Of a stretch of DNA of 64,000 bases, positions 13,911 through 64,000 are shown one piece after another. Below the pieces are notes generated by a model. It saw only the letters and a list, made by a program, of their open reading frames with translations. It was not told where the DNA came from and did no database searches. Position numbers and translations under genes: made by a program. The stretch comes from Candidatus Omnitrophota bacterium (GTDB lineage: Bacteria > Omnitrophota > Gorgyraeia > 1-14-0-20-64-10), in the NCBI GenBank assembly GCA_016177405.1, contig JACOVG010000021.1, positions 14,434 to 78,433 on the forward strand, read 5' to 3'. The first letter of the stretch is position 1; every line of letters begins with the position of its first letter.

Positions 13911-16900
13911 TTACGCGGCGGTGCGCAGGGGTTCGATCTCTTCGAGGATTCTTTCCGGGGTAAGGCCGCGGACGCCGAGTTCCTTAAGGGCGGCCAGGTA
14001 CCACTCGATCCAATTCTGATCCACTTCTCGAATCACAAAGTCAGGCGAGGGAAGCTGGACGCGCGCCATGGCCTCGTTGAGCGCTCTCCGGTGATCGGCC
14101 TCATCGCCGGGAAGGTAAACGTAGGTTACCGCTTCCAGGAGGCGCCGGGCCAGAGGATCGGAAAGCCGCGCTTGGGCCTGGGCCAGCTCCTGGGCCGTGG
14201 CCACCCCGGCCGCCCGGATAGGAAGCTCCTGCTCGCCTAGTCGAAGCTGAACCGCCAGCCGCAGAAGCTCCAGCACCCGCGCATCCCCCTTCCCCGTATC
14301 CACCACAAACCTCATCGGTTTCGTCACCGGTTCGGCAACCGGCGCCTGAACCCCCACCGGCTTCTCCTCCAGGCCGGATTCGTAACCGATCAGGGGATAA
14401 ACTAGAAGGGCAGCATTGAGGGGCCTAAAGGGCCGCTCCACCCCCTTGCCTCCTGCCGGCTGAGGGCGACGAGGAGAAGAACGGAGGTTGGTGCCGTCCC
14501 ACTGGTTTACATCTTGGCTGCCGCCAAGAAGCAAAGCGTCTCTGGCGCCCAACTCCTTAAGAAGAGAAGCCAACTGATGTACCGTTACGCCAGAAAGCCG
14601 CTCGCCCATTCTTTCTCCAAACATCGAAAGGAAGATAAGTTTCCCCGCGGGGTCAATCCCAATGGCAGAGAAGGAAGCCTGCGTCGTCTTGGGATTCCAT
14701 CCCACTCGGTCAGGCCGCCAGTCCAGTCCAAGAGGACGGCCTCGTTCATCACGCTTTATAACCTCAGCTTCCTCGATCTGATCCGCCACAAGCTCTCCAT
14801 TTCGAAGCAGTGCCGGGCCGGAAATCGCATGAGAGATACCGCCTGTAACGAGCTGATTATTCTTGATCTCAACGGTCTCAAGGCCCAGGCGCTCTAATGG
14901 CGCTAACACAAATACGGTAAAGCGGCCATCCAGGGGGCGATATTCACTTTGAAAGAGACCCCTCTTCTTATCCGTCTTTCGAATCAGTCGGCCATCTACA
15001 ATCAGAAGCCCAAGCGGCTGCCAGAAGTTGGATTGGAAGCTGTTGGAAGCGTAGATGAGGCGCGGGGCTTGTTCTTCTTCGGCTGATCCTCTGCCTTCCT
15101 CAATAATCTCTTGGAAATGCCGGCCAGGCAGCTGATCGTCGGAAAGGGCGGGATCCCCCAGCATCTGCGGGAGTGTATCTCCCGGCAAATCTTGATCTAG
15201 AATTTCGGGGTTAAACCAGGAGACCACCTGAACCTGGCGCGAATCGACTAAGAAAACCTGACCGCTGGCTTGCTGGGTTCCGGTTCTCAAAGTCACTGAT
15301 CGAATGGCACCGATTCCGCTGGGGTCAGATTTGGGGTCCCCCACAACGAACTCCTCCAGGCCAGCGGAGGGAGGTCCTTGATTCTTCGGAGGGCTCGAGA
15401 GAGGAGGCATCTTCTCGAGAAAGGAAAGGGCCACCCAGCCGCTCATCCCTTGCAGCCGAGCTCGTTTGCCCTGGACATCCACCTCTTCCACAACCCACTC
15501 TCGAAGTCGGCGATCATGAACACGATCGCCCGCTTGGATCGGCAGCTCGGCGGGCGGGGAGGGTTTCGTGTCCGCCGCGGTTCCCCCCAATTGAAAGTGA
15601 GCATCGGCCCTGCGAATCGCCTCCCCTAAGGAGGCAGAGGTCCTGTCCGATACTGCCTGGTTGAGGTATTCGACGGCTGCTGCAAGAGCCCGCTCCTGGG
15701 AAGGGCTTCCTTCTCTGACGGCCATCTTGAAGCCCGCCGCGTAGGCCAGGCCGCCCAGGGCCGAACCGGTGAGATCGCCCAGAGAACCCTCCTGAACCTC
15801 CGTGTCTCCTCTTTCCGGCGCACGCAACATCTCGGCTCGGACGCTTGAGATGATCCGCTCAAGCTGGTTGGCGCGCTGTTCGGCGGAGAATTCTTTTTCT
15901 CCTATCTCGCGGCCCTCCGCGAAGACCCTCATCTTTGCCAGCAGCCAGGGAAAAATGATGGGCAGCCCATAAGGACCGCGCAACGTCTTTTCTTCCTGGA
16001 AGGCACCGCTTCGAACAAAGAGGAGCATCTCCATGGCTCCGGCAAACCAATCCGCTGCCTTGCCTTTATCCGCCTGCAGGATTCTGGCAATCTCCCTGCC
16101 GTATGCGGCCGCCATTCGATCCACAGGGAGGGCATTCGCCACCCAGACAGACCAAGCCGCCTCTCCGGGTCCCAATCTCTTCCTGCGAGAGCCCATTCCG
16201 TCTGCCGTGAGAAACTGCCTGGACTTCACCGCAAGTTCCTGAATCAGACGTCCTTGTTCTGCTTCTGATGGCTGCCCTTCCTTCCAGGCCTCTTCAATCG
16301 CGGGTAGGTTCATCTCGGCATAAGCGGCCAACCCTAAGGGGCGGGGCTCCGAATCAATCAGGCCGTTGGCAAGAGCCCTCCTTTGGACGGTTCCCGCTTC
16401 ATCGCCGGGAAACAGGGCAGCCAAGACCCACTCCCGGGTTTCGCGAAGCGATCCCTTTTCCTCTTCCGTAAAACCCTCGCTTGCCGCCTGGAAGAGCACC
16501 GCCAGCAACTGGGGGCTTATCCCCAGGGATTCTATGCCATGCTGCAGATACCACCGCCGAACCAAGGCCGCCTCCCTTATTCCCTCCTGTACAGCCCTTC
16601 GGCAAGCCTGGGAAAACTTCGGGTGGTGGGTCTTCACGTATTCCAACCAAGCTTGATCCGCCTGCCGAAGGCGGCCGTGAAAGGCCCTGCCGGTCCTCAT
16701 CGCCCTCTCGCTGAAATAGGCGCCCGACAGAGAAGCTCTTCCCGTCACGACCTGCTCATCGCGCTGGGGGCTGACCTCAAACGCCTCGCGCATCTTCGTA
16801 ACAAGCTCAGTCAGCATGCGCCGGTAGGCAAGCGCCTCTCGGCCATGGCCCGCGGCGTAGCGCGCCAAAGAGGCCGTATCTCCCATAAAAACCGCGTACG

Positions 16901-19900
16901 ACTCCTCCAATTCAATAAGCTTTTCCAGCAAGAGGGCGACTACCAGGGGATGGGTTTTCGAAAAGAGCTCTTTAAGAAAGGCCTCCCGGTAGTAGGTGTA
17001 GGATTGGATCAGCGCCTGGCGGTCAGGCAACCGGATGGCACCGGACGGCACCGCTCCTCCCTCTTCTGCCGCACGCGCAAGACGCATCCTCCCCAAGGTC
17101 TCCAGGACGCCAGCGGCCATCTGGCCCATCATCTGCACCGAAGGGCTCTCTCGGAGCACCTCGGGATGTGACGTAAAGCGCTTCCAATTCTCTGCTCTCG
17201 TCAGGAAAATCCGCTGAAGCGCTTCGGAGGCCTTGATGTTTTGGGGGGTAACGCCGGTGTGGGATACCTGGGCCTCTTGCTGTAACTTCGGAATACGGGC
17301 CTGCTCTATGGCATCGCGAACATAGATGGCCAACAGCATGCGTATAACCGCCAGGGGACCCCCTTCACCCTGAAGCCGTTCGGTCTGATCAAGAATTTGA
17401 AGCGCCTGCTCGTTGGGTAGCCTGCCCACCATCCTGCCGAAAGCCCACAGGAGGCGATCCGTGCCGTCGTGCATCATGGACAGCAGGAGATCATCCAGCA
17501 AGATCGCCCTGACCGATTCCGCTGGAGGATCTTTGCCGAGGAAGACCTCGGACACAAATCGCTGGATCTCCGGATCGTCGACCATCCACGACAAACCCTC
17601 CAGAAATAAAACCCTTTGGAATGAAGCCGCCTGGGAGAGCTCTTCGGACGTTTTCTTCATTCGCTGGTTCGGCTCTTTCACGGTGCGAATCTCCCTTAAA
17701 AGGGATTGCGTCTCGGCATCTACCATCGCATTCGCGTACAGCTCAAAGGGGAGAACCCCCAGCCCGTATTGAAGCCCCCTGGAGAGGACGTAAAGCCGGT
17801 TGGCAGCCGCGGCTCGTTCCCCGGCATGGTGGCGCATGGCCATCGCCGTCTCCGAAGTCCGGCCCATCGAAAGCACCTCCCCAGCCACTCCATGAATCTC
17901 GATAAGCTTTTCCAATTTCCGAAAACGGGCAAAGGAAGCGAGGTCGCCCTCTAATGCCTCCGTGAGAGACTGCTGTACCTCTGTGCAATAGCGAACCACC
18001 TCGGCAATGGTCTCTATGGCCCGCTGGACCTTCTCTTGGAGCTCTTCCTTTTTGAGCCGGCCCTCCTCTGCGGCCAAAATGGTTTCCATGATCTGGGCTC
18101 TCAAGCGGGCCACATAGGAATCGTTTCTAAGGGCGCTCACGACGCCATCGTAAAGATCGCCAAGCCCGCTCCAGATGCGCACCCTTTCTTGATACAGCGC
18201 CTCTATCTTGAGGTAGTGGGAGGGTTCGATGGGCCCTCGCTTGGCTTCGAGCTCGCGAATCTGGGACTCCTTGACTCCATCAAGAAGATAGGCCAAGAGC
18301 AACTGCCCGTGAGCTTTCCATGGAACTCCTCCTGAAAGGCGCAGCGCCGCTTTCACCGCGGCATGAACCCGAATACCGTCCTGGACTGGAAGGTCCCGAA
18401 CCGCAAGGGCCAGGGAGGACAAGGCCTCATCGGAGTGTTCCTCCTGGGAGGAACTCAACACCGCATGGAGGATGGCGTCTCTCAACAGCTCCGCCTGTGG
18501 TGTCCCTGCAAGAAAAATATCTACCAGCCACGCCTGCACCTCTGGGTGTTCTCTTACCCAAAACAGCGCCTTAAGAAAAGCGGCCCGCTGGCTCTCATCG
18601 AAGGTCGGCAGACGCCTCTCCGTTAAATCCAGTCTGCGGTTCGCGTCTTTCTCTGCAACCAAATCCCCAATCAACTCCTTGACCCTCTCATCCCATGGAG
18701 CGCTCCCTGATCCCTCCTCCTGCTCCTCCAGGCCGGAGGGGGGAGACGGCGTTGGCGCGTGACGGATGAGGACCCGAGAGAGCTTTCTGACCAATTGATC
18801 CCGCGTTACCTTATTCTTGGGATCCGGATTTACCAAGTTCTTCCATCTAAAAGTAGACCGTTCCTTCTGAAGACGGAAATCATCCTCGTCTTTTTCCATT
18901 CTAAGGGTGAGGAAATGATCCCCTAACAGCCCCCCCAAACTCAACTCCCCTTGAGCATTTCGGATTCCCCGGCCTTTCCTTGCCTCCATCACCCACCCCG
19001 AACGGAGCTCAACCCCCTCTTTTTTTAAGCCATTGATGCCGGCCACAAAATCCTTGGGCCTCCTGCTGTCAATCACGATATCCCCAATATGAAGCCGAAG
19101 TTTTCGTTCAACGGGAAGCAAGGGAAACCAGGGTTTTTGCTCAACGATTTCGACCTTAACCTGGGGGATCTCCACACTCGGTGAGGGCGGCTGCGGCGGC
19201 GCTGCAGGCTTGGCCACCGGCGCTGGGGGTTTAAGGAGTGCCGCTTTGGGGATGTGCCTCGGTGTAACTTGTTGACCTTCGCTCGCCTTCTTGTACCAAA
19301 CCCAGTGTGTTGAAAGAAATTCAAACACCTCTTGGGCACTCTGTTGGTCCAGGATTTCCTTTTCTTGCCTGATGTGTGTCAGCCAATCCCACGCCGAGAT
19401 GGCAGCCTGCTCATGATCTGAGTTAGGCGCGGGCGGCGCTGCCGCCGCCACCCTTAAGCTCATCTCGGTGGCTTTCGCGTGCACATACTCCAAGAGCGGT
19501 ATCCAGCCGTCCACACGGTACCGCTTCCCCTCCTCCAGGCCGGATAAAAATTCTCTGGCAAAATCCCGAAGCTGTTCCGGCGTTACGCTGACTTCCCGGA
19601 GCATCTTCTGGGCATCGTCGGTTTTCATCGCTTGGTAGGTTTTTTCATTTCCTGTTATGATGACTCCTCCCATCTCGATGGACGCAATGCCGATTCCATC
19701 CAAATGCCTTTCCTTAGCCCACGAGGAGGCATAACTCACCCTGGGAAATATGAAGATTCTGGCCGCCCCTTCCTTTGGCCCACGGGCGAAAAGGACGTTG
19801 TAACCCAGCATTTCCCTCCTCGCAATTCTCCCGTCCAAAAGTCTCAAAAACCGATTCCCGGCATCTGCCAAATCATCTCGCAAAGAGCCTTCCAGCACCA

Positions 19901-24044: not shown

Positions 24045-24048
24045 TGCC

Positions 24049-24816
24049 TTACGCCAGAACGAGGACGTGCGGTTCGGCCGGGTATTCCCGCGTCAGCTTG
24101 GCGGAGGCCGGCTTGTCCACGATGATCGTCGCCTTGGGATGCAGCTGAACGATCGTGGCCGGCACAATCGCCGTGATCGGTCCCTCGCAGGTGTTGGCGA
24201 TCGCCTCGGCCTTGCCCGCGCCGTTGGCCAGCAGGATGAGCTGGCGGGCGTCCATGATCGTGCCGATTCCCATCGTGATGGCGTACCTGGGAACCTCGTT
24301 CATGTTGCGGAAGAAGCGGGCGTTGTCCTGCCGGGTCCGGTCGTCCAGGGTCTTGACGCGGGTCCGGGAGCCCAGCGACGAGCCCGGCTCGTTGAAGGCG
24401 ATGTGCCCGTTGCCGCCGATCCCCAGAAGCTGGAGGTCCAGGCCCCCGGCCCGGATGATGTCCTCTTCGTACTTGCGGCAGAATTCCGGGATGTCCTTCG
24501 CGGTGCCGTCGGGGATATGGACGTTCTTGGCGTTCACGTTCAGGTGCTTGAAGAGGTTCTCCCACATGAAGAAATGGTAGCTCTGGGGATGCTCGTGGAC
24601 CAAGCCCACGTACTCATCCAGGTTGAAGGTGGTCACCTTGGAGAAATCCAGACCATCCTCTTTGTGCAGGCGGATGAGCTCCTTGTAGGTCCCCAGGGGG
24701 GTCGAGCCGGTGGCCAGCCCCAAAACGGCCCGGGGCTTGCGGCGGATCAAATCGGCGATCAGCTCCGCCGACAGGCGGGATACCTCGTCGTACGATTCCT
24801 TGACAATGACTTCCAT
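24049..24816 (-). CDS. nagB: Glucosamine-6-phosphate deaminase
   Basis: The 255-aa ORF has canonical NagB blocks (LGLATGSTPLGTYKELI, FNLDEYVGL, IGGNGHIAFNEPGSSL, ITMGIGTIMDARQ). Confidence 0.9.
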   Translation of the reverse strand: MEVIVKESYDEVSRLSAELIADLIRRKPRAVLGLATGSTPLGTYKELIRLHKEDGLDFSKVTTFNLDEYVGLVHEHPQSYHFFMWENLFKHLNVNAKNVHIPDGTAKDIPEFCRKYEEDIIRAGGLDLQLLGIGGNGHIAFNEPGSSLGSRTRVKTLDDRTRQDNARFFRNMNEVPRYAITMGIGTIMDARQLILLANGAGKAEAIANTCEGPITAIVPATIVQLHPKATIIVDKPASAKLTREYPAEPHVLVLA

Positions 24817-30266: not shown

Positions 30267-30275
30267 TTTGTCCTC

Positions 30276-53957: not shown

Positions 53958-54083
53958 CTTCGTCAGATGCGTCCCTCCTTTACAGATACCCCTACATCAG
54001 AAAGTTTACCTGATGCGCCGCCAATTATCAAATTTTATAACTAAGTATATTCTGCTACTAACTATTAGCCAGATCTCTCTTCG
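53958..54083 (-). promoter_or_regulatory. AT-rich intergenic island between giant genes 4 and 3, with a promoter-like TTGATA-17-TAAACT, an AAGGAGG RBS and a CATCAG/CTGATG hairpin
   Basis: The only AT-rich (~40% GC) segment in this part of the window. The minus strand reads ...TTGATAattggcggcgcatcaggTAAACTttctgatgtaggggtatctgtAAAGGAGGgacgcatctgacgaagaATG. Confidence 0.35.
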
Positions 54084-57000: not shown

Positions 57001-60000
57001 TGGACGACCGCGCCCGCTGGAATGGAGTCGCCGTAGAGCTTCTTCATCCAGTCATTCTGCATGAGAGGACCGGGTTTTCCGACCTCGCCCTGCGGCTCGC
57101 CCTTCACCTGCTCGTCGTATCCGATCTTCCGGGCGTGAGCCGCCACCTGGGCAGCGCCCAGCTTCTGGACCTGGTCCAGCCAGGCCAGCCGCACCGTCTG
57201 GCCCGCCCCCTTGATGCCCCGCTTCTGCGCCTCCGAACCCCAGAAGGAGAGATAATAAGTTCCCTTCAGCTCATCCGCGGTGAAGCTCTTGACGAATTCA
57301 TCCGGAGCGGCCGGGTGGCCGATCGTGCTGGCCAGGATCTGGCCGGTCGCCTTATCCACCGCGATCAGATGGACGCTGTCCGCAGCTTCATGAATTCTCT
57401 TCCAGCCCTCCACGGTGTTGTAAAGCGCGAACCGGCTGATTCCGGCATCCAGGGCCTGCTCCGTTTCAGGGGCATCGGCCTCCAGCATCTTTTGGCCCTT
57501 GAGAAGGGCAAGGGCTTTCTTCAAGTCGCCGCCGGCCGCTTGAAGGACCTGCTCCTTGTAGGCAGGCACCTGGCGCCGGGCAAACTCCCAGGCCACATTC
57601 TGCAAGCCGCCCGCGGCCAGAAGAACCTCCCAATCGGCCTTCTTCTGGCCGCCGGCGGCCAGGTGGAACTCAACCGTGACCGGATTGCCGTCCTTGTCCT
57701 TGGTATCCAGCGTATCCACAACCTTCCCAAACCGCTCCGCCGCGGGGGCGTAGCGGTAATCCTGGGCACTCGCCGGCTCAAACTCGCTCCAGAGCGCCTT
57801 GCCGGCGAGATCCTGCATCAGGGCCTCCGCCGCCTCCGGGGTCTTGGCCTGCTGGAGGCCGCCCAAAAGGTCTTGGCCGGAGTCTCTGGCCGCTTGATCA
57901 ACCGCCCGCAGGTTGTGGTGCACGCGCACCCAATAGGCCTCGTCGGTATTCCCCGCCATCAAATTCTCCAAATCCTCGCGGATGGCCCGCAGAGCCGAGT
58001 CGCCCTCCGCCATTCTTGCCAGACCGGCTTCGGCCTCGAACAGCCCCTGGGCGGTTTCGAAGCGGCCGGGGCGCGCGCCCAGGATGTTCTTGGCAACAAC
58101 TCCTCGCGCCACCCTTCCAATCCAGCTTGTCCAAAGCGACCGGGTATCCTTGGCCGCTTCTTGTCCCAAGGCCCGCGCGGCCTGGGCGAAGCGGTCCCGG
58201 TGCCGGGTCTCCTCGGCATCCCGCGTGGACTGGGCATGGGTCCGGGCCCACGGGCGTTCCCATCCCCTAAGTTTCTCGAGGTGCGGGATCAGCGCCCCCA
58301 AGAGCTTCTCCAGCGGCTTCACGTATTGGTCATAGCGCTTGGGATCCGCGGCCTTGAGGCGATCCAGATACCCTGCCTCGAATCCGGGCTGGGCAATCCG
58401 TTCCGCGCGGCTGCGGGCGGTGGCATCGGACAAAACGGCGTAGGGACCGCTGTTGAAGGAACCGCCTTCCGCCAGGCGAAGTCCGATGGTGATATTGCCC
58501 GGATGGGCTTGGGCATCCCGCGGCGGCGCCACGATGCCGCCTGTGACGGAGCCGGAAACCTCGCTCACAAAGACCGCCAGGCCCTGCGGCTGAAGGAACT
58601 TGCCTGTGAGGGTCTCCAGGAGCGGCTGGAGATCGGTTACCCGGAAATTCCCATCCGGCAGTTTCAGCGCGTCGGCCGCTTCTTTGGGCAGGCCGGCCAG
58701 GCGGACCGCCTCCATGAGCGATTTCTGCAGTTTGGCCTTCCCGTTTTCTGAAAGGACGGCATCCGCTTTACCCTCGACGGATCCGAGCGCTTCCTTCACC
58801 GCCTCCTCAACGGCCGGCACCACCACAAAGGCCTGCGGGATCTTGCCCTGAACCATCTGATCCAGAACCTTGTTGAGAGCCAGCAGGGATTCCTGATCCA
58901 CGCCGGGATCCTGGGTCCACTGGGCCAGCATACCCTTCATCGTTCGAATGGCCGCCTTGACCGCCAGGGTTTCGGGTGTCTCCTGGACCGTCTGGGTGGC
59001 CGCCTCTTCAGCCCCCGCCTTCGCCAGATGAGCTGTTGGAGGCCGCTGCAGCCAGACCATCTCTCCCTTCGGCGTCTGGGCCAGGAGATTCAGCGCCTCT
59101 GAACCGAGGGAGGCGGCGCCCGGCTTGGCGCCCTCCTTGGCCAACAGGTGAATCGCCCTGGCCACCGGCAGGATGGCCTGATCCACCTTGAGGTCGGCGG
59201 GCTTGTTTTCATCGTCGTCGCCTGAGCCGCCGCTCGCGGCATCCTTCTTGGGCGGCGCCGGCATCATCCGCCTTAAGACATCGCCTATCGTCCGAGCACG
59301 CTGGAGGACCGCCGTTTCTTGACCATCCCGAATCTCCGCTCCGCGGGGAGCCGCTTGCCCCTGCACCTGCAAAACGCTTGAATCTTTAGCGAGCGTCAGC
59401 GTTAATCCCAGCGCTTCGTTCTCCAGGTGAAGAGTCTCGTTGCTGGAGGCCCTTACGGCGGCTCCCGCCACGAAGGCATCCAACGGCAAGCCGGTCTGCT
59501 GTTCCACCTTCGCCCGGGCATCCGGCGACAGCGCGAGCAACCGCCGGGCGTCATTACCCTCGATCTTCCGGGCGGACATCGCCTGCTTCAACCGGTCATT
59601 GGTCTGCACCCCTTGCTCTCCGGCGGATGGCCGGTAGCTTATCCCCTTCCAAGAATCCTTCCTGGCTTGGGAGACCGCTAGGGCAAACCGGTCAATCTCC
59701 TGCCGGTCGGCAGGGGTCAGGTAATGATACTCGTCGTTGGACTCGATCGCCTGCGCCACCAGCGCCACAACCGTCTCCTGATCGAGCGCGCCCAAGAAGG
59801 CCTCAACCGGCATGACCTTCGCCACGAAGAAGAAAGCCCCAAAGGCGGCGTGAAACTCCGCTTTGTCAAACAGCCGGTGGATCGTCCAGTTGGCCTGCTG
59901 CTCATTCCTGGCGTGCCGCACCAGGACAAGCCGCTCGGAAAGCTTGGCCAGATGCTGGACGTTATCGGGATCGATCCGCCCGCCCAGCTCCCCTTCCAGC

Positions 60001-63000
60001 TTCTCGATCTCCGCCCAGATCTTATCCGGCTTCATCCCCTCCGCGTGCTGATCGAGTTTATGGACATGGAGAAGCACATTCCGTTCGAGTTCGGAGTTCC
60101 GGTCGGTCATCCGATCCCGGGAGATGGCAATGGAGCGGGCCGCCTGCAAGGCCTGCAGGCCGTGCGTCAACTCGTGCGGGACCAGGAAGGTGGCGTAGAG
60201 GGCCGCCAGACTCTTTTGCTGAAGCTGTCCTTTGGCATTCACCCACTGGACCGGGAGGTTGGCCAGACCCGACTTCTGAAGGGCATGGAGGATCTTGGAA
60301 TCCACGGTGATCACCAAGGTCCCGTCCGGATCCTGATGAATGGCCGCGGCGCCCACCTTCGCCTCGAGATCACCCACCGCTACCCGGATGAGCGGCTTCC
60401 GGGAAGTCCCCTGGGGAGCAAGAAGCTCCTCTGGATCAACCCCCTCCAGCCCGAAGGTTGCCAAGAGTTCCGGCCGGGTCCGAAGCAGGGCTTCAACGAC
60501 CGCCTGGGCGAGATTTCGGACCTCCTGGGTCGCCTCCTCGCCTTCTGGAATGGCCTGCTCTGCTTGAGAAAGTTGCTCAATCCCAAAGAGACTCTCCGCC
60601 ATGGTCGGCGCTCGGCCTGTGGTTTCCGCTGTGGTAACACGCTCATCCATTTTGTCAACCATGGTTCTAAGCAAGTCCGCGTAAGCCCGATTGCCGGAGC
60701 CAAGCTCATTGAGTTTCGCCGCGCGCTGATCCGCGCCCAAACGCCAGACGGCACCCGCGTCCCCGATGAGCCGCTGAAGCGGATTCTCCCCGGGCTGGAG
60801 GTTCAAACTGCTCAAGTCAACCCCCGTGGCTTGCGCGATAACCTTCTCCACGACCGGGGCCGCTATCCTCTCCGCGGCTTGGGCCTGGGGCGAGTTCGGC
60901 TCGGCCAGCGGCGCGCTTCCGGCAAGCTCGGCATCTCCAATAACCTGCTGCGCTTCGAGTAACTGTCTGACCTCTTTATCCATCCCCCAAATCTGGTTCT
61001 TCATCGCCGCCTGTCGGGCTTCCCGGACAGCCTCGCGCCGCTCGCCCCGGCTGCCGGCGGGATCGTGCGCCGCCTGACCCCTGGCCAGCGCCAGGGAAAG
61101 CTCACGCCCCTCTGGATCGGCAAGAAGCCCGGGATCCGCGGGGAGAAGCTGAAGGAAGAGCCCCTGCTGAATCGGGGTGAGGTTTACCTGTTCAAGCAAG
61201 CGGGCGCGAATGTCCTTGGCGTTGAACAGGACAGCGCCCGGGACAATCGCCGCCTCGAAGTCGTGGCTAAGGGCCGCGTCTGCCTTGCCACCTTTGGCTG
61301 CCTCCCCAGCCAGCATCTGATGGACCAACGACTTGCTCCACCCGGCCGGATCCTCAACGGTGGGGGAAACCTGCTTCACCAGCAGGGTCAAGAGCTGGAC
61401 AAGCTGGTCGGCATTGGCCTGGGGCGCCAACCGCTTGGCCTGCGCCACCAACTCTGAAGCCACTACTTTCAGCAGATGCGCCTTTCCGGCAATCGCCTTC
61501 TTAAGCTCTTCTTGTTGAGATTCAGTCAGCCCCTCTCCGGTCACACCCAGATTCCGCAGGCGGCTTTGGACCCATTCCACCAACGGTTGAGGAAGGCCTT
61601 TGTGCCAGGCGCTTGGATACGCGACGATGGACTGAACGATCTGGCCAGCCGCCTCCTGCGCGGTTTCTTTGTTCCTCATGGCCTCCGCGGCAGTCAGAAG
61701 CGCCTGGCCAGCACCCGGAGCCATGAGGCGCGGGAGTCTTTCCTTAAATTCACCCATCCATTTTTCGACCGCCTGGGGATCCTCCGGCTCTTTCTTGTCC
61801 TGGAAGGCGCGGGCTTTTTCCTCCGCCTTTTTCAGAACCTCCTTCACATTGCCATTCTGCTGGCGGTCCACCTCGTGCTGGAGGGTCTGGATGGCCGAGG
61901 CCAGCCGCTGGTTGGCCTTCAGCGGTGGCTCTTTTTTCTGTTTTTCTTCATCCACCTGGACAATCTGTTCCAGCGTACCCAAGGGTTTATCCAGGTAGTC
62001 GGCCAGCTCTTTTACGCCGGCGAGCTGGCCTGTCCCCTGGGCAGCCCAGATCAGATCCTTCCAAGCAGTCAGAAGATCGACGCCAGGCACGTTCGCCCAC
62101 CGGGCAAGCCTCGGTTCCACCAGGGCCAACAGCACTTCCGGATTCACCCCGTTGGCCCGGGCAAGCTCCTTTACCTTCTCGGGCGTCCAGATCTTCAGTT
62201 TTTGCTCGAGCTGTTCCTTCAGATGGGCTTCCTCGGTCTTCACCTGCCCGCTCTCAATCTCAAGGACGGCGCGATCCTGCGGGTTGGTCGTCTCCTTGGC
62301 CCGCTCGCCAAGCTCCTTGGCCGACGTCTCGACCCGTTCCAGATCCACGCCGATCTCGCCCAGCTCAAGGAAGTCACGCAGATCACCGCTTATCGCCGCG
62401 GAATTCTTCTCAACACCCTGGGCCGCCAATCCCTGAATGCCGGCCGGCTCGGTGAGAGCCCTGCCAATGGCCTCGGCCCCAAAGAGCGGGGCCTGCCCCT
62501 GATGAACCCCCTTGAAGAAATCAACCACCTGGGCCGCCTGCCGGTATCTCTCCGGATCGGCAAAGGAGCTGCTAAGCGGATTCAGGAAGTTCTTCAGCGC
62601 GAAGAGGAAGAGATCGCCTTCGGCGGCGGTATATCCCGCGTCGCTCGCCAGGGTCGTTATCCAGCCCTTGAGGGCGGAATCCTCTTCGTCCTGGTATTGA
62701 TGGTGAAGGGCCAGCACCATCCTGCCGGTGAGGGTCAACTGGCCGGCGGCTCCCACCATGTTGTTCGCCGTAAGGTAAGGCGCCAGCGCGGCGCTCTTCG
62801 GATCGGCCTTGGCCTGATCGATCGTGCGCGCGGTCCCGCTCAACCTGGCCTCCAGCGGTTTGGAAAGAGGCCCGGCGCGGCGGGAGGTGAGCCAATTGGC
62901 GGTGCGCCTGGCCCAGACCACCGCCTCGGCAACGGTGCCTATCTCCAGCGCCCCTCTCGTTTCCGTGCCGGCCTCAACGCTTCGAGCCAGGGAGTCGTAT

Positions 63001-64000
63001 CGGGTGAGATCATCGGTCATGAACAACTTGTCCACCTGTTTGGCAACCTCACCCGGCAGGAGGCTCTTCAAGCGGCCAATGGTGCCGTCCTTGCCGTCCT
63101 TCATCTTCCCCAGGAGGGACTCACGCCAGCCCTGATAGATCCCCTCGTAATTATCCAATCCTCGAAGGGTCTCTCCGGTGATCGCCTCCTCCCCATAAAG
63201 GGACTGATCGTTCAGGAACTGCCGGTATTGCGCCTCCACCACCTGGCGCGCGGCGGCGTTGCCCTTGACCTCCCTAAGCAGCGCCTTGAAGGCGTTGTTC
63301 GTCATCCGGCGCAGGACACGCTGTGAGAAGGTGTGGACCAGAGACTCGGAGTTCTCCTTCACCCGCCTGACTTCACCCAGGAGCTTGACCCGCTCGTTCA
63401 GGGTGAGCGGCTGGCTTGGATTCTTCCACTTCTTCAAGAGGTCCAGGTTGTCTTGAACATTCCGCTGGGCTGAAGGTAAGCCCCCTCCTTCCAGGCGGTT
63501 CTTCTCCAACGCGAAGATTCCATCGAGGTCCCCCGCCAGGGGCTGCTGTTCCTTGGGGCTTCCCAGGAACTCCGTCTCCAGCTTGGCCAGCTCCCTCCGG
63601 CCGTAGAAGAGGTGCGCCTCGCCGTTGGCGGTCTGGCCTTCCACGCGGTTCACCCTTCGGATCATCTGGGCCAAATCCAGAGAGGAGTACTCCTCCGCGT
63701 GGACCGCGATGAGATCGGTCCCGGCGGGGGCATCGGTCGGGTCAAAGGCCTGCTTGGCCCGGCGGTTGGTGATCAAGAGCTGCCGGCCTTGGCCCAGCTC
63801 CCTGCCGGCCTGAAGGAGCTTGCCGGCATCCGGGGTATCCAGGACCACATGGATCTTGTCAAACGCCCGAAGATCCTCCATCCCCTGAATCATCCCTTTC
63901 TGAACCTTGCCGCTTTCCGGCAGGATGATGATGAGAGACTTGTCTGGGTTCTTCGCCTTCCAGGCCCTGACAAAATTGATAACGTCCAGGGCGGCGTCGA
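54084..64000 (-). CDS. Giant multidomain protein (at least 3300 aa in the window; N-terminus beyond the window end), predominantly alpha-helical, with an SF2-helicase-C-like segment at the window edge
   Basis: The track gives 54084..63893 from an internal Met. The frame stays open to position 64000 with no stop (...DAALDVINFVRAWKAKNPDKSLIIILPESGKVQKGMIQGMEDLRAF...). Residues encoded near 63.6-64.0 kb resemble a helicase C-terminal domain (LIAVHAEEYSSLDLAQMIRRVNR, cf. motif VI QxxGRxxR). A single HExxH (FLVPHELTHGLQ) occurs near 60.1 kb. No TM segments were seen. Confidence 0.65.
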   Translation of the reverse strand, partial: DAALDVINFVRAWKAKNPDKSLIIILPESGKVQKGMIQGMEDLRAFDKIHVVLDTPDAGKLLQAGRELGQGRQLLITNRRAKQAFDPTDAPAGTDLIAVHAEEYSSLDLAQMIRRVNRVEGQTANGEAHLFYGRRELAKLETEFLGSPKEQQPLAGDLDGIFALEKNRLEGGGLPSAQRNVQDNLDLLKKWKNPSQPLTLNERVKLLGEVRRVKENSESLVHTFSQRVLRRMTNNAFKALLREVKGNAAARQVVEAQYRQFLNDQSLYGEEAITGETLRGLDNYEGIYQGWRESLLGKMKDGKDGTIGRLKSLLPGEVAKQVDKLFMTDDLTRYDSLARSVEAGTETRGALEIGTVAEAVVWARRTANWLTSRRAGPLSKPLEARLSGTARTIDQAKADPKSAALAPYLTANNMVGAAGQLTLTGRMVLALHHQYQDEEDSALKGWITTLASDAGYTAAEGDLFLFALKNFLNPLSSSFADPERYRQAAQVVDFFKGVHQGQAPLFGAEAIGRALTEPAGIQGLAAQGVEKNSAAISGDLRDFLELGEIGVDLERVETSAKELGERAKETTNPQDRAVLEIESGQVKTEEAHLKEQLEQKLKIWTPEKVKELARANGVNPEVLLALVEPRLARWANVPGVDLLTAWKDLIWAAQGTGQLAGVKELADYLDKPLGTLEQIVQVDEEKQKKEPPLKANQRLASAIQTLQHEVDRQQNGNVKEVLKKAEEKARAFQDKKEPEDPQAVEKWMGEFKERLPRLMAPGAGQALLTAAEAMRNKETAQEAAGQIVQSIVAYPSAWHKGLPQPLVEWVQSRLRNLGVTGEGLTESQQEELKKAIAGKAHLLKVVASELVAQAKRLAPQANADQLVQLLTLLVKQVSPTVEDPAGWSKSLVHQMLAGEAAKGGKADAALSHDFEAAIVPGAVLFNAKDIRARLLEQVNLTPIQQGLFLQLLPADPGLLADPEGRELSLALARGQAAHDPAGSRGERREAVREARQAAMKNQIWGMDKEVRQLLEAQQVIGDAELAGSAPLAEPNSPQAQAAERIAAPVVEKVIAQATGVDLSSLNLQPGENPLQRLIGDAGAVWRLGADQRAAKLNELGSGNRAYADLLRTMVDKMDERVTTAETTGRAPTMAESLFGIEQLSQAEQAIPEGEEATQEVRNLAQAVVEALLRTRPELLATFGLEGVDPEELLAPQGTSRKPLIRVAVGDLEAKVGAAAIHQDPDGTLVITVDSKILHALQKSGLANLPVQWVNAKGQLQQKSLAALYATFLVPHELTHGLQALQAARSIAISRDRMTDRNSELERNVLLHVHKLDQHAEGMKPDKIWAEIEKLEGELGGRIDPDNVQHLAKLSERLVLVRHARNEQQANWTIHRLFDKAEFHAAFGAFFFVAKVMPVEAFLGALDQETVVALVAQAIESNDEYHYLTPADRQEIDRFALAVSQARKDSWKGISYRPSAGEQGVQTNDRLKQAMSARKIEGNDARRLLALSPDARAKVEQQTGLPLDAFVAGAAVRASSNETLHLENEALGLTLTLAKDSSVLQVQGQAAPRGAEIRDGQETAVLQRARTIGDVLRRMMPAPPKKDAASGGSGDDDENKPADLKVDQAILPVARAIHLLAKEGAKPGAASLGSEALNLLAQTPKGEMVWLQRPPTAHLAKAGAEEAATQTVQETPETLAVKAAIRTMKGMLAQWTQDPGVDQESLLALNKVLDQMVQGKIPQAFVVVPAVEEAVKEALGSVEGKADAVLSENGKAKLQKSLMEAVRLAGLPKEAADALKLPDGNFRVTDLQPLLETLTGKFLQPQGLAVFVSEVSGSVTGGIVAPPRDAQAHPGNITIGLRLAEGGSFNSGPYAVLSDATARSRAERIAQPGFEAGYLDRLKAADPKRYDQYVKPLEKLLGALIPHLEKLRGWERPWARTHAQSTRDAEETRHRDRFAQAARALGQEAAKDTRSLWTSWIGRVARGVVAKNILGARPGRFETAQGLFEAEAGLARMAEGDSALRAIREDLENLMAGNTDEAYWVRVHHNLRAVDQAARDSGQDLLGGLQQAKTPEAAEALMQDLAGKALWSEFEPASAQDYRYAPAAERFGKVVDTLDTKDKDGNPVTVEFHLAAGGQKKADWEVLLAAGGLQNVAWEFARRQVPAYKEQVLQAAGGDLKKALALLKGQKMLEADAPETEQALDAGISRFALYNTVEGWKRIHEAADSVHLIAVDKATGQILASTIGHPAAPDEFVKSFTADELKGTYYLSFWGSEAQKRGIKGAGQTVRLAWLDQVQKLGAAQVAAHARKIGYDEQVKGEPQGEVGKPGPLMQNDWMKKLYGDSIPAGAVVHHAGQENKYGPNQHADEFILKLDSMSKLTEYQAKLAGAAAGLEEGAAAVMEPPAAGRAGVIERAVAEVLRPEKLPKILGMPVLPPGVVEGVAGAMRQPLTLAALNCGLEAALHYVELRQGLEIGSMVRSQPDQVEEMARTLTILLLLHAVEGERGGKSLLYRLAGMEKPAVRVPYALIAPLLKATHDYRLDLWQAPVPLSQSVDLVEQGGPFGTVPGAVYSRYADTGSDGQQTLYFLAEGMTGPAVAHLQTPAFGHAVTLMAVGEELRQRMARVHDRPARPLWVQGPAIFQFDDGKMVSAAGLAPLAPAPAVPAILPAPAAIGRSVLAAPQPGNVANVVKPKAYQVIRALLGVMERPPVVESTPPPRGLGDLSGKKRDRKGKPSRKAFMGELRQRFAYALTELKKVGEERRRGLVLRYFDEIVAELKEQRPDPYPSAQEMARVLMEAAAGPNGWLPAGDGYDSIANRLGDLVEAGASFSEAYVELFGVGAPRPQPTAVILEERGDPSWLNREMKKLAGVYLSGGVTEQSFREFLSSVQELSEQWYGWEDSLQQDGGVYRQDGQGKLVLYLKDGRRKRALDCAEINEHLRRILNGYGITAELYVGRTSAFTRDVFLKGKFQGRTFRATGVPSLNPLEMGEGASLQWAGLEERVNPETMRRLMAQRGWTGGPAVIHLSQLRPMGISRQRDGSHLLELAGLEEKGKHLVATRVTRRILPGGQGVQDISFDRISVPVQAMRLANGKSELSRALAALGKEAGRRELEEALKKAGATIESSGRSSAQTAELIHWMVSVPFDPRPISPSEESRTPDAVIAAHAGFIRWQAKLEILERNEIVVLPDLLLDRISEEALNALAVLPAGLASRVRLLGAGWESFDMARRNPALTVVPEMSSLAATLPAGAAVQVVGVGEDDPLVRELSRLLSRAVTARPVTGGLQDFLWMLGRALGVPEKTIRQELNRLTEALAAEPVIGRGV

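What the first reader, a model, noticed from the sequence alone, without database searches (positions are those of the whole stretch)
13911..64000. Array of four tandem co-directional giant genes (2687, 2165, 4338 and at least 3269 aa; ~37 kb coding) forming a candidate uncharacterised system
Four uninterrupted giant ORFs sit on the same strand. The junctions are tight: giants 2 and 3 overlap by 8 nt, and giants 3 and 4 are separated by a 126-nt AT-rich island. ORFs of 6-13 kb cannot arise by chance even at 65% GC, and the proteins have ordinary composition with recognisable domain fragments.

Giants 1 and 2 carry signal peptides and share a paralogous phosphodiester-glycosidase-like domain. 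Giant 3 is a polytopic membrane protein with a long coiled coil. Giant 4 is soluble and starts beyond the window with a helicase-like segment. The array is interleaved with amino-sugar metabolism (nagB) and secreted CBM/GH-like proteins.

The combination of exported giants, a membrane giant and a helicase-bearing giant, all carrying sugar-phosphate enzyme modules, does not match any well-described system I know. The giant multidomain ORFs reported in some candidate phyla are the nearest analogy.
Basis: partly seen in the sequence, partly recalled or inferred. Interest (0 to 1): 0.9.

Follow-up and report, generated by a model that had tools for sequence, protein, structure and literature searches.

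The report
Omnitrophota giant envelope-protein gene cluster
The four huge genes are real and come from an uncultured Omnitrophota bacterium, a group already known for giant membrane-bound, sugar-processing proteins, so the locus is not a new kind of system; the new detail is a short peptide motif ([A/S/T]-G-L-E-E) that recurs in all four giants and their distant relatives and may mark where the giants are processed.

Summary
All four giant ORFs exist on the minus strand at the stated coordinates. They cannot be chance ORFs, recur in independent assemblies, and evolve under purifying selection (dN/dS 0.23-0.39).

- The array is not strictly tandem. G1 lies 12.5 kb and 11 genes away from G2.
- G4 is the C-terminal 3.3 kaa of a protein of at least 7,922 aa.
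- No helicase-like signal was found in the window part of G4.

The source is an NCBI MAG labelled Candidatus Omnitrophota. Giant, many-TM, carbohydrate-enzyme-bearing ORFs with sugar importers nearby are already described for that phylum.

What this analysis adds:
- G3 belongs to a very rare family: 5 other clusters among 1.84 billion representatives, all 3.8-5.4 kaa.
- G4-like then G3-like gene order is kept in three other contigs.
- G2's modules, an (alpha/alpha)6 glycosidase-like barrel and a NAGPA phosphodiester glycosidase, are fused into G3 homologues elsewhere.
- A linker motif [AST]-G-[L/A/V]-E-E is about 90-fold enriched, positionally conserved, has genome-specific variants, and is often followed by a Tat-like RR signal.

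Best reading: an envelope-anchored, modular glycan-processing machine, possibly processed at the motif. This is a new variant of a known kind, of moderate interest.

The parts
54084..64000 (-). G4: C-terminal 3,304 codons of a giant gene of at least 7,922 codons. No family hit; mostly soluble.
   Evidence: Frame open to the window end. Called as 7,922 aa and cut by the contig end on Logan SRR12113429_16470. No Pfam, NCBIfam, PADLOC or PDB hit. Orthologue in L020: 69-76% aa identity over the C-terminal parts (aa 2359-2697 and 2812-3302) but only 41% at aa 494-2366; dN/dS 0.24-0.39.
53958..54083 (-). AT-rich G4/G3 spacer with a promoter-like site (TTGATA-17-TAAACT at 54031-54003)
   Evidence: GC 40.5%. 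One promoter-like site found against 0.1 expected. The spacer is also AT-rich in the orthologous locus L020, 9735-9914.
40941..53957 (-). G3: 4,338-aa polytopic membrane giant and the conserved core of the cluster
   Evidence: No Pfam or PDB hit. Only 5 homologue clusters among 1.84e9 representatives, all 3,795-5,397 aa, collinear over most of G3 for four of them (P0007-P0010, 29-39% identity per segment) and over parts of it for P0011 (25-58%). L020 orthologue 73-85% aa identity, dN/dS 0.23-0.33.
53802..53858 (-). G3 N-terminal membrane anchor (aa 34-52), conserved in all family members
   Evidence: Hydropathy peak. Consensus PRxxPxLKxxAAATxFAFTxTSVxPAGWA in alignment A1.
47013..47687 (-). 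G3 TM cluster 1 (aa 2091-2315), with invariant D2260 and D2262 (consensus DRDxGRL)
44148..44825 (-). G3 TM cluster 2 (aa 3045-3270), followed by the most conserved stretch of the family (aa 3250-3450, PPYSRD...WRRAYA...KAEDT)
41412..42062 (-). G3 coiled-coil-like stretch (aa ~3966-4182), inside the variable region where homologues carry other modules
   Evidence: Weak SMC/Rad50 and LmuB matches. Low conservation and 50-60% gaps at aa 3850-4250.
34451..40936 (-). G2: 2,161-aa exported or anchored multidomain protein, 4 nt downstream of the G3 stop
   Evidence: Identical 2,161-aa product called on 6 independent contigs. NCBI MBI1953371.1.
40493..40567 (-). G2 internal Tat-like element MDRREFGRRALFWAGAAFLGLPRPI (aa 128-152), 12 residues after the first GLEE
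   Evidence: Sequence. The same arrangement occurs in G2 orthologues P0013 (SGLEEVLLNRRQFLREMG) and L024 (GLEAGLEG...SRREFLVAG), and in P0007 and P0009-P0011. Pfam TAT_signal matches P0011 aa 100-119 at E=0.002, below the curated cutoff.
39029..40483 (-). G2 (alpha/alpha)6-barrel glycosidase-like module (aa 156-640)
37487..38563 (-). G2 NAGPA-like phosphodiester glycosidase module (aa 796-1154)
   Evidence: Pfam PF09992 at E=1.3e-3, below cutoff. Paralogous to G1 aa 2202-2547 and to P0007 aa 4351-4669, which scores PF09992 at E=1.9e-13.
13911..21974 (-). G1: 2,687-aa giant, a separate transcription unit
   Evidence: NCBI MBI1953359.1, 'DUF4922 domain-containing protein'.
20661..21410 (-). G1 ARMT1-like/DUF89 damage-control (sugar-phosphate) phosphatase domain (aa 189-438)
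   Evidence: PF01937, E=1.6e-41. NCBIfam damage-control phosphatase, E=4e-18.
19845..20348 (-). G1 DUF4922/GDPGP1-type (GalT/HIT-like) NDP-hexose phosphorylase/transferase domain (aa 543-710)
   Evidence: PF16269, E=3.8e-20. PF26216 GDPGP1_C on record. Weak GalT matches.
14499..15050 (-). G1 NAGPA phosphodiester glycosidase domain (aa 2309-2492)
   Evidence: PF09992, E=2.1e-13.
53700..53711 (-). Motif S-GLEE, G3 aa 83 (site 1, just after the N-terminal anchor)
   Evidence: Present at the same alignment position in 5 of 5 family members and in L020.
48600..48611 (-). Motif T-GLEE, G3 aa 1783 (P/S-rich linker before the domain that precedes TM cluster 1)
   Evidence: Present in 4 of 5 family members and in L020.
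45867..45878 (-). Motif T-GLEE, G3 aa 2694
   Evidence: Conserved in L020. The other members carry their motif about 170 alignment columns further on.
42333..42344 (-). Motif A-GLEE, G3 aa 3872
   Evidence: Conserved in L020. Family members have a motif in the same linker zone.
41442..41453 (-). Motif A-GLEE, G3 aa 4169
   Evidence: L020 carries an A-GLEE at its last bases (nt 23064), beyond its aligned stretch, which ends at G3 aa 4098, so the equivalence is by position only. P0009 has one at aa 4652 in the same alignment zone.
40971..40982 (-). Motif V-GLEE, G3 aa 4326 (9 residues before the C-terminus)
   Evidence: Same position in P0007 (AGAEE) and P0011 (VGLEE).
40604..40615 (-). Motif V-GLEE, G2 aa 112
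   Evidence: Followed by a Tat-like element. Conserved in G2 orthologues P0013 and L024.
38525..38536 (-). Motif A-GLEE, G2 aa 805 (start of the NAGPA-like module)
37469..37480 (-). Motif A-GLEE, G2 aa 1157 (G/S/P-rich linker at the end of the NAGPA-like module)
56871..56882 (-). Motif A-GLEE, G4 window residue 2373
   Evidence: Conserved in L020 although the flanking residues differ.
54903..55064 (-). Two further GLEE copies in G4 (window residues 2979 and 3029), not conserved in the orthologue
14364..21797 (-). Seven GLEE copies in G1 (aa 60, 68, 452, 812, 1081, 2205, 2534) that bracket the ARMT1, DUF4922 and NAGPA domains
   Evidence: 7 observed against 0.19 expected.
22065..34419 (-). Eleven co-directional genes between G2 and G1: four CBM9/CBM11/CBM30 proteins, a 302-aa unknown, a 2xPDZ protein, a HAMP-like TM protein, a small exported repeat protein (181 aa; weak FG-GAP/EF-hand and adhesin-family matches), a TPR membrane protein, nagB, and a DUF4954 left-handed beta-helix protein
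   Evidence: Pfam. NCBIfam. N-terminal signal-like sequences. Promoter-like site at 24941-24912.
820..8605 (-). Beyond G1 on the same strand (past a block of + strand genes): SBP_bac_1 fused to an ABC permease (6320-8605), CBM30 fused to an ABC permease (5028-6362), an 851-aa unknown, and a ROK-family protein (820-2022)
   Evidence: Pfam.

Best explanation
This is a giant-protein locus of an uncultured Omnitrophota (PVC-group) bacterium. It encodes a modular carbohydrate-processing apparatus anchored in the cell envelope.

Proposed roles:
- G3 is the membrane-embedded core, with an N-terminal anchor and two TM bundles.
- G2 is translationally coupled to G3 and supplies exchangeable catalytic modules: an (alpha/alpha)6 glycosidase-like barrel and a NAGPA-type phosphodiester glycosidase.
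- G1 carries a second NAGPA domain plus a sugar-phosphate phosphatase and an NDP-hexose phosphorylase-type domain.
- G4 (at least 7.9 kaa, fast-evolving in its middle) is a conserved upstream partner of unknown activity.

The adjacent secreted CBM proteins, the two ABC importer components, NagB and a ROK protein complete the locus. The inferred activity is to bind and take apart amino-sugar or phosphodiester-linked glycans, on prey, host or particles, and to import and catabolise the products.

All four giants and their homologues carry a short linker motif, [A/S/T]-G-[L/A/V]-E-E. It is most likely read by a trans-acting factor. My preferred reading is proteolytic processing of the giants into modules, several of which would then begin with a Tat-type signal.

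What is shown: the genes, domains, family, synteny, fusions, and the motif statistics. What is inferred: localisation, substrates and any cleavage.
For: Real genes:
- Chance probability of the stop-free frames is 1e-26 or less.
- Identical products appear in independent assemblies.
- dN/dS is 0.23-0.39 against an orthologous contig.

Origin: NCBI names for G1-G3 are 'Candidatus Omnitrophica/Omnitrophota bacterium'.

Carbohydrate theme:
- G1 has PF01937, PF16269 and PF09992.
- G2 has a NAGPA paralogue.
- Neighbours are CBM30/11/9 proteins, nagB, DUF4954, SBP plus permeases, and ROK.

Membrane core: TM clusters, conserved across the family.

Functional linkage:
- A G4-like ORF lies directly upstream of a G3-like ORF in L020 and L023, and one gene removed in L022.
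- G2 aa 108-613 and the NAGPA module occur inside G3 homologues P0007 and P0009.
- There is a 4-nt gap between G3 and G2.

Motif:
- 16 [AST]GLEE copies against 0.18 in shuffles, with a maximum of 3 in 2,000 shuffles.
- None occur in any other real gene of the window.
- Every family member is enriched.
- Four to five positions are conserved in the alignment.
- The motif is kept in L020 while its flanks change.
- P0007 uses GAEE/GVEE/GIEE at all sites, and two neighbouring ORFs (upstream and downstream) also carry AGAEE/AGVEE alongside two GGLEE copies in the neighbours.
- Flanks are P/S/A/G/T-rich (0.50 against 0.37 background, p=1e-7).
- 12 of 60 motifs are followed within 45 aa by RR plus a hydrophobic stretch, against 1.7 expected.

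Agreement with published descriptions of Omnitrophota giant genes.
Against: - No experimental or proteomic evidence for expression, localisation or cleavage.
- No protease was identified in the window.
- The conserved core of G3 and all 3.3 kaa of G4 in the window have no detectable family, and the AF2 model of G3 aa 1850-3044 was unusable (pLDDT 40). The activity of the two largest proteins is therefore unknown.
- G1's phosphatase and NDP-sugar domains are of cytoplasmic type and fit biosynthesis as well as degradation.
- The RR elements sit after an N-terminal anchor, which is topologically awkward for classical Tat export unless cleavage comes first.
- Motif codons are biased towards GGC CTG GAG GAG (8 of 19), so some nucleotide-level contribution, such as a Shine-Dalgarno-like GGAGG, is not excluded.
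- The taxonomic label conflicts with that of the closest relative, which is named 'uncultured Planctomycetia'.
- Synteny rests on only 3 extra contigs.
Confidence: 0.6

Rival explanations
1. The locus builds or remodels the cell's own envelope glycopolymer (a 'coat') rather than degrading foreign glycans. G1 (NDP-hexose phosphorylase/transferase-type domain and sugar-phosphate phosphatase), the DUF4954 left-handed beta-helix protein and NagB would supply or edit activated amino sugars. G3 would be a polytopic, GT-C-like membrane enzyme or scaffold. The NAGPA domains would trim GlcNAc-1-phosphate diesters during maturation.
For: G1 carries cytoplasmic-type sugar-nucleotide and sugar-phosphate domains. 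DUF4954 resembles the C-terminal beta-helix domains of GlmU and GMPPB. Invariant D2260 and D2262 (consensus DRDxGRL) lie within TM cluster 1 of G3. [quoted passage not shown]
Against: No glycosyltransferase family was detected in any giant. Five neighbours carry CBMs, there is an SBP/ABC importer, and the barrel is glycosidase-like; all of these point to uptake and degradation. The GT-C idea has no fold support because the model failed.
Confidence: 0.25
2. The giants are mainly adhesins or structural surface proteins, and the [AST]GLEE motif is only a structural linker or helix-capping element that is never cleaved or recognised.
For: Most of G3 and G4 lacks catalytic signatures. Omnitrophota giant ORFs have been proposed as adhesins. 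The motif lies in P/S/A/G/T-rich linkers. Two G4 copies are not conserved.
Against: A purely structural element does not readily explain the genome-wide switch of the variable residue (L to A/V/I) in P0007 and in ORFs on both sides of it. It also does not explain the coupling to Tat-like elements. Four recognisable enzyme domains are present.
Confidence: 0.2
3. The long ORFs are artefacts: assembly chimeras, pseudogenes, or spurious frames of a GC-rich genome.
For: GC is 62.5%, so the non-coding frames also hold open stretches of up to about 900 codons. One frameshift interrupts the G3 orthologue in L020.
Against: Chance probability is 1e-26 to 1e-52. Identical proteins come from at least 5 independent assemblies. 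dN/dS is below 0.4. G3 homologues at 25-39% identity (up to 58% over short conserved stretches) cover most of its length. Pfam domains are in frame.
Confidence: 0.02
4. A helicase-containing defence or mobile-element system, or an NRPS/PKS-type megasynthase cluster.
Against: There is no helicase, nuclease, NRPS or PKS domain in any giant with Pfam, NCBIfam or PADLOC. The LmuB/SMC matches fall in a coiled coil only. The neighbours are carbohydrate genes.
Confidence: 0.03

Closest known systems
Omnitrophota giant proteins of the 'Archaeovorin' type (West-Roberts et al. 2023, bioRxiv 10.1101/2023.11.21.568195; type: the 39,678-aa protein of Velamenicoccus archaeovorus LiM)
   Same: Same phylum label. 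Huge ORFs with many TM helices and long unannotated stretches. Carbohydrate-active and sugar-phosphate enzyme domains embedded in the giants. (alpha/alpha)6 domains (cellobiose-2-epimerase-like) seen only by structure prediction. Solute-binding proteins, ABC permeases and glycan-binding or hydrolase genes nearby. Suspected but unproven post-translational cleavage.
   Different: The material here is spread over several ORFs of 2-8+ kaa rather than one ORF above 30 kaa. No SecA_DEAD, C39/S8 peptidase, GT, HEAT or NUDIX domain was found in the window parts. No PilZ gene lies downstream. The upstream type II/IV secretion genes cannot be seen. The domain set (ARMT1-like, GDPGP1-like, NAGPA) and the [AST]G[LAV]EE plus Tat-like linker element appear in neither Omnitrophota giant-protein preprint searched.
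Giant genes of Planctomycetota and other PVC bacteria (Reva and Tummler 2008; reviewed in PMC12673574)
   Same: PVC-group, GC-rich genome. Multiple genes above 5 kb, proposed to act at the cell surface or in carbohydrate metabolism. The closest relative contig is labelled Planctomycetia.
   Different: Those genes form a heterogeneous class without a defined family. No sequence relationship was tested. The G3 family found here has only 6 clusters at 50% identity in 1.84e9 representatives.
Polysaccharide-utilisation-type loci (surface glycan binding and hydrolysis, importer, cytoplasmic catabolism and regulator)
   Same: Logic of the neighbourhood: exported CBM proteins, glycosidase-like modules, SBP/ABC importer, NagB, and a ROK regulator or kinase on one strand.
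   Different: No SusC/SusD. The enzymes are embedded in membrane-anchored giants. The substrate is unknown.
Viral and other polyproteins with repeated protease recognition sites (an analogy for the motif only)
   Same: A short, sequence-specific motif recurs in inter-domain linkers, with a lineage-specific variant shared by all sites of one genome.
   Different: No protease was identified and no cleavage was shown. A bacterial chromosomal context, and coupling to Tat-like signals, would be unprecedented as far as I know (own knowledge; nothing found).

Membership tests
Omnitrophota giant ORFs (Seymour et al. 2023: ORF longer than 20 kb in an Omnitrophota genome) | ORF longer than 20 kb | tested here: met
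   G4 is at least 7,922 aa (at least 23.8 kb) on Logan contig SRR12113429_16470. G1-G3 are 6.5-13 kb and fall below this threshold.
Omnitrophota giant ORFs (Seymour et al. 2023) | Genome belongs to phylum Omnitrophota | tested here: inconclusive
   NCBI names G1-G3 'Candidatus Omnitrophica/Omnitrophota bacterium'. The 85%-identical relative is deposited as 'uncultured Planctomycetia bacterium'. No marker genes are in the window, and no phylogeny was run.
Archaeovorin-type giant proteins (West-Roberts et al. 2023) | Numerous transmembrane regions | tested here: met
   G3 has an N-terminal TM plus two clusters of roughly 6-9 hydrophobic helices each. G1, G2 and the window part of G4 do not.
Archaeovorin-type giant proteins | Divergent SecA_DEAD / SecA preprotein-binding domains | tested here: not met
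   No such Pfam hit in G1-G3 or in the 3,304 window residues of G4, even at E up to 5. The N-terminal 4.6 kaa or more of G4 lies outside the window and is untested.
Archaeovorin-type giant proteins | Characteristic domain set: glycosyltransferases, methyltransferases, glycoside hydrolases, peptidases, NUDIX, HEAT/TPR | tested here: inconclusive
   A GH-like (alpha/alpha)6 barrel and NAGPA are present. A SAM methyltransferase is seen only in the G4-like ORF of L023. No GT, peptidase, NUDIX or HEAT hit.
Archaeovorin-type giant proteins | Sugar-phosphate or glycolytic-type enzyme domains embedded in the giant | tested here: met
   G1 has an ARMT1-like sugar-phosphate phosphatase and a GDPGP1/GalT-like domain. 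These are different enzymes from those listed in the paper.
Archaeovorin-type giant proteins | Preceded by a type II/IV-like secretion gene set; followed by PilZ genes | tested here: not met
   No PilZ hit among the 11 genes downstream of G2, or near G1. The region upstream of G4 is outside the window, so that half is not testable.
Archaeovorin-type giant proteins | [quoted passage not shown] | tested here: met
   SBP_bac_1 plus BPD_transp_1 at 6320-8605. CBM30 plus BPD_transp_1 at 5028-6362. CBM proteins at 29553-34419.
NAGPA phosphodiester glycosidase (PF09992) | Pfam model above the gathering score | tested here: met
   G1 scores 51.3 bits against a cutoff of 25. G2 scores only 19.4 bits (not met on its own) but is homologous to G1 and to the P0007 domain, which scores 51.4 bits.
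Twin-arginine (Tat) signal peptides | S/T-R-R-x-F-L-K motif, hydrophobic h-region, N-terminal position, export by TatABC | tested here: inconclusive
   The RRxFL(K) motif plus a hydrophobic stretch is present. Pfam TAT_signal scores 18.5 bits against a cutoff of 22.7 in P0011. The elements are internal, not N-terminal. Tat genes and export are not testable here.

The most novel reading that the evidence does not exclude
The giants are bacterial polyproteins. A lineage-specific protease would recognise the linker motif [A/S/T]-G-[L/A/V]-E-E, whose variable residue co-varies across all sites and neighbouring genes of a genome. It would cut the giants into modules. Several modules would then expose a ready-made twin-arginine signal at their new N-terminus and be exported separately by Tat. 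That would give the cleavage map that the Omnitrophota giant-protein literature says is missing, and it would be a mode of protein export not described in bacteria.
Probability: 0.2. Interest if true: 0.8.

Novelty: new variant of a known kind. Interest (0 to 1): 0.45.

Why it matters
Giant genes take up a large share of the small Omnitrophota genomes, yet nobody knows how the products are made, exported or divided. West-Roberts et al. state that missing cleavage information blocked their analysis.

This locus offers a tractable, medium-sized version of the problem:
- The material is split into ORFs of 2-8 kaa.
- One core family (G3) is conserved.
- Modules move between genes, which defines the functional units.
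- A statistically strong, positionally conserved linker motif with genome-specific variants gives concrete, testable candidate processing sites.

If the motif proves general, it could be used to cut giants of 30-150 kaa into modules for structure prediction and proteomics. If it is not cleaved, the locus is one more uncharacterised Omnitrophota giant-gene cluster, with a somewhat clearer amino-sugar and phosphodiester-glycan theme.

Tried and rejected
1. The search for homologous proteins. The whole-G3 query timed out. A 1,100-aa G4 piece and a 900-aa G3 piece returned nothing, not even the identical G3 sequence that is in the collection. The third search returned only two G2-module relatives. 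The word index is evidently lossy for these proteins, so absence of hits from that tool is not evidence.

2. Sequence searches against families and structures. Pfam in about 750-aa pieces at E up to 5, NCBIfam, PADLOC, and PDB sequences with single proteins and with profiles A2 and A3 gave no credible family for G3 or G4.

3. AlphaFold2 of G3 aa 1850-3044 with a 5-sequence alignment gave mean pLDDT 40. Only aa ~1860-1960 was confident. The model was not used for fold search.

4. A shared C-terminal module in all giants, suggested by eye and by a MAFFT alignment. Cross-searches with three HMMs gave no significant hit between the groups, so I rejected it as unsupported.

5. The motif as a purely nucleotide-level signal (a Shine-Dalgarno-like GGAGG for internal initiation or pausing). 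Synonymous variants that destroy GGAGG occur (GAA in 5 of 19 first-E codons). No in-frame start codon follows at the right spacing. The A/S/T and G positions would remain unexplained. This is not favoured, but the excess of GGC CTG GAG GAG (8 of 19) is unexplained.

6. Internal repeats within the giants: none apart from the G1/G2 NAGPA paralogy.

7. Rfam on the whole window: nothing at gathering thresholds.

8. Literature searches for the motif found nothing.

9. The N-terminal part of G4 could not be reached.

Full report
OBSERVATION

The window (62.5% GC) has four very long ORFs on the minus strand:
- G1: 13911-21974, 2,687 aa.
- G2: 34451-40948, 2,165 aa from a TTG start, or 2,161 aa from the ATG at 40936.
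- G3: 40941-53957, 4,338 aa.
- G4: 54084 to the window end. It is 3,269 aa from the first ATG, but the frame stays open to base 64000.

With a stop-codon probability of 0.027 per codon, stop-free frames of this length have chance probabilities of 1e-26 to 1e-52. In the four frames that hold no giant, the longest stop-free stretch is 897 codons. Exact-sequence look-ups find the same G1, G2 and G3 products on contigs assembled independently from several runs (SRR12113418, -420, -426, -428, -429 and others). On a 44,984-bp contig, G4 is called as 7,922 aa and is still truncated by the contig start. The window therefore holds only the C-terminal 40% or so of G4.

An orthologous contig is L020 (CAYJSX010000001.1), with 73-85% aa identity for G3. 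Against it, dN/dS is 0.23-0.33 for G3 and 0.24-0.39 for G4. These are real genes that evolve quickly but under constraint. The middle of G4 (aa 494-2366) is far more diverged (41% identity, dS 1.45) than its flanks.

- The four giants are not strictly tandem. G4, G3 and G2 are contiguous, but 11 genes (12.5 kb) separate G2 from G1.
- A strong sigma-70-like site lies upstream of nagB (24941-24912, 11 of 12 matches).
- A TTGACA hexamer with a weak -10 lies upstream of G1.
- The 126-nt AT-rich G4/G3 spacer (40.5% GC) holds the only promoter-like site of that region, and it is also AT-rich in the orthologue.
- Likely transcription units are therefore G4 | G3-G2-CBM genes... | nagB-DUF4954 | G1.
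- With the ATG start, G2 begins 4 nt after the G3 stop.
- No helicase-like or any other family was detected in the window part of G4.

SOURCE AND LITERATURE CONTEXT

G1, G2 and G3 are NCBI proteins MBI1953359.1, MBI1953371.1 and MBI1953372.1. They come from a MAG named Candidatus Omnitrophica/Omnitrophota bacterium, on a 92,389-bp contig. The closest relative is deposited as 'uncultured Planctomycetia bacterium'. I could not settle the phylum, but both labels lie in the PVC group.

Giant ORFs are a published hallmark of Omnitrophota:
- ORFs above 20 kb occur in most genomes of several classes, are poorly conserved and have few annotated domains (Seymour et al. 2023).
- 'Archaeovorins' have numerous TM helices, divergent SecA domains, and carbohydrate-active and sugar-phosphate enzyme domains. 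Some domains are visible only by structure prediction (for example cellobiose-2-epimerase-like). Secretion genes lie upstream, PilZ immediately downstream, and solute-binding proteins, ABC permeases and hydrolases further downstream. Cleavage is suspected but the sites are unknown (West-Roberts et al. 2023).
- Complete genomes contain proteins up to 147 kaa (Nielsen and Lui 2026).

ANATOMY OF EACH GIANT

G1 has a short N-terminal hydrophobic segment, followed by:
- an ARMT1-like/DUF89 phosphatase (aa 189-438, E=1.6e-41);
- a DUF4922/GDPGP1-type (GalT/HIT-like) domain (aa 543-710, E=3.8e-20);
- about 1,400 unannotated residues;
- a NAGPA phosphodiester glycosidase (aa 2309-2492, E=2.1e-13).

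G2 has an N-terminal signal-like segment, followed by:
- a NAGPA-like module (aa 796-1154), paralogous to that of G1;
- a weak ROK/ASKHA-like stretch (E=0.024).

G3 has an N-terminal anchor, a large conserved region (aa 450-1600), two TM clusters (aa 2091-2315 and 3045-3270), conserved soluble regions after each cluster, and a variable coiled-coil-containing tail. None of it matches Pfam, NCBIfam or PDB sequences, even as a profile. The AF2 model of aa 1850-3044 was too poor to use.

NEIGHBOURHOOD

Between G2 and G1, all on the same strand, lie:
- four exported proteins with CBM30/CBM11/CBM9 matches;
- a 302-aa unknown;
- a two-PDZ protein;
- a HAMP-like membrane protein;
- a small exported repeat protein (181 aa; weak FG-GAP/EF-hand and adhesin-family matches);
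- a TPR membrane protein;
- NagB;
- a DUF4954 beta-helix protein.

Beyond G1 lie a HAD hydrolase, an SBP fused to an ABC permease, a CBM30 fused to an ABC permease, and a ROK protein.

FAMILY AND LINKAGE

An exhaustive HMMER search with G3 aa 801-2000 against 1.84 billion cluster representatives found only five other clusters. All are giants of 3,795-5,397 aa. P0007-P0010 are collinear with G3 over most of its length at 29-39% identity per segment; P0011 matches only parts of it (25-58%).

A metagenome scan with the family profile found three loci. Gene order is as follows:
- In L020 and L023, an ORF homologous to the C-terminal part of G4 lies immediately upstream of the G3 homologue.
- In L022 it lies one gene further upstream, and a further ORF of at least 1,654 aa follows downstream.

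Domain fusions also link the genes. G2 aa 108-613 is homologous to P0007 aa 76-628 and to P0009 aa 4242-4610. The NAGPA module of G2 and G1 is homologous to P0007 aa 4351-4669 (Pfam E=1.9e-13). The G2 modules are therefore parts of the G3 protein in other genomes. That is classic fusion evidence for a shared function.

In one MAG, a G2-like gene stands next to unrelated trp genes, so the linkage is not absolute. G1 is connected to the rest only by the NAGPA paralogy and by the motif described next.

THE MOTIF

Enrichment and specificity:
- The tetrapeptide GLEE occurs 19 times in frame in the four giants, against about 0.9 expected. It occurs in no other real gene of the window.
- With the preferred small residue in front, [AST]GLEE occurs 16 times. 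Shuffles give 0.18 on average and never more than 3 in 2,000.
- All five G3 homologues are similarly enriched for G[LAIVQM]EE.

Position:
- Four to five sites occupy the same places in the family alignment: just after the N-terminal anchor (5 of 5 sequences), before the domain that precedes TM cluster 1 (4 of 5), between the TM clusters (4 of 5), after the conserved core, and near the C-terminus.
- In L020, the G3 sites at aa 83, 1783, 2694 and 3872 and the G4 site at aa 2373 are kept although the flanking residues differ; a further A-GLEE at the truncated end of L020 probably corresponds to G3 aa 4169. Two G4 copies are not kept.
- The flanks are rich in P/S/A/G/T (0.50 against 0.37 background, p=1e-7).

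Genome-specific variants:
- P0007 has no GLEE at all. It uses GAEE, GVEE or GIEE at every site (plus one AGLED at the first site).
- The neighbouring ORFs on its contig carry AGAEE/AGVEE as well, alongside two GGLEE copies.
- Such a concerted change points to a trans-acting reader.

Coupling to Tat-like elements:
- Twelve of 60 motifs are followed within 45 residues by RR plus a hydrophobic stretch of the S/T-R-R-x-F-L-K type, against 1.7 expected.
- Ten of the 28 such elements in these proteins are preceded by a motif.
- G2 (MDRREFGRRALFWAGAAFLGL) and its orthologues show the same arrangement.
- Pfam's TAT_signal model scores just below its threshold on P0011.

Codon evidence: motif codons vary synonymously, which argues for selection on the peptide. 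However, GGC CTG GAG GAG is over-represented (8 of 19).

No paper in the searchable library mentions the motif.

INTERPRETATION

Confidence about 0.6: the locus is an Omnitrophota giant-protein cluster that works as an envelope-anchored, modular glycan-processing and uptake apparatus.
- Shown: the domains, the membrane core, the neighbourhood, the synteny and the fusions.
- Inferred: orientation, substrates (the amino-sugar/phosphodiester glycan theme rests on two NAGPA domains, NagB and ROK) and any role in predation.

About 0.25: a serious rival is biosynthesis or remodelling of the cell's own coat, because G1's domains and DUF4954 are of the sugar-nucleotide type.

About 0.35 that cleavage happens at all, and 0.2 for the full scenario: the motif is best explained as a recognition site, and my preferred mechanism is proteolytic processing that releases modules whose new N-termini are Tat signals. 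The main alternative is a non-cleaved linker or docking element.

Artefact, defence-system and megasynthase readings are rejected.

VERDICT

The system belongs to a known phenomenon, so its novelty is that of a variant:
- a rare G3-centred family;
- a multi-ORF architecture with module exchange;
- an undescribed linker motif coupled to Tat-like elements.

Interest is moderate (0.45). It would be high if the motif proves to be the processing code of Omnitrophota giants.

Noticed in passing
window 8517-8557(-), 9308-9339(+), 10033-10073(+), 10420-10450(-), 10896-10936(+), 27128-27159(-), 29510-29541(-): A repeated 31-41-nt element, TTGCTTCG-[8-22 nt]-CTCGCAATGAC; in most copies the variable spacer is a small palindrome whose sequence differs between copies. 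There are 6 exact copies plus one with a single mismatch, against 0 expected. Six of the seven sit at the 5' ends of genes for small exported proteins, on the same strand. There they encode 'LLR..LAMT' just before the hydrophobic core 'FLFL...FA', or they contain the true ATG start. This could be a 5'-leader hairpin or a REP-like element tied to secreted-protein genes. No Rfam family matches.
   Followed up: partly
window 57000-62500 (G4 aa 494-2366) versus L020 1-5703: The middle of G4 is far more diverged from its orthologue (41% aa identity, dS 1.45, dN 0.55) than the flanking parts of the same gene and G3 (69-85% identity, dS 0.36-0.6). This suggests a hypervariable or recombined cassette inside the giant.
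   Followed up: partly
window 6320-8605(-) and 5028-6362(-): Unusual fusions in the sugar importer. One ORF joins an SBP_bac_1 solute-binding domain to a BPD_transp_1 permease. The next joins a CBM30-like domain to a permease.
   Followed up: no
window 29553-34419(-): Four consecutive paralogous exported proteins with CBM30/CBM11/CBM9-like domains. Their DNA repeats are up to 300 nt long at 71% identity (repeat finder D1, D2, D5, D6), which indicates tandem duplication of a glycan-binding gene.
   Followed up: no
L020 about 12352-12363: The G3 orthologue in the related MAG changes reading frame once (frame 2 to frame 3). This is either an assembly error or a real frameshift in that genome.
   Followed up: no
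L023 52-3966(+): The G4-like ORF upstream of a G3 homologue in another metagenome carries a SAM-dependent methyltransferase domain (aa 278-413, E=3.5e-11). That domain is not detectable in the window part of G4.
   Followed up: no
window 40941-53957; G3 aa 2260-2262 and aa 3278-3283: Invariant D2260 and D2262 (consensus DRDxGRL) lie within TM cluster 1. An invariant PPYSRD lies right after TM cluster 2, followed by the most conserved 200 residues of the family. These are candidate active-site or interaction motifs of the unknown core.
   Followed up: no
(no window coordinates): The taxonomic labels conflict. The window's proteins are named Candidatus Omnitrophota in NCBI. The 85%-identical relative (CAYJSX010000001.1) is deposited as uncultured Planctomycetia.
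   Followed up: no
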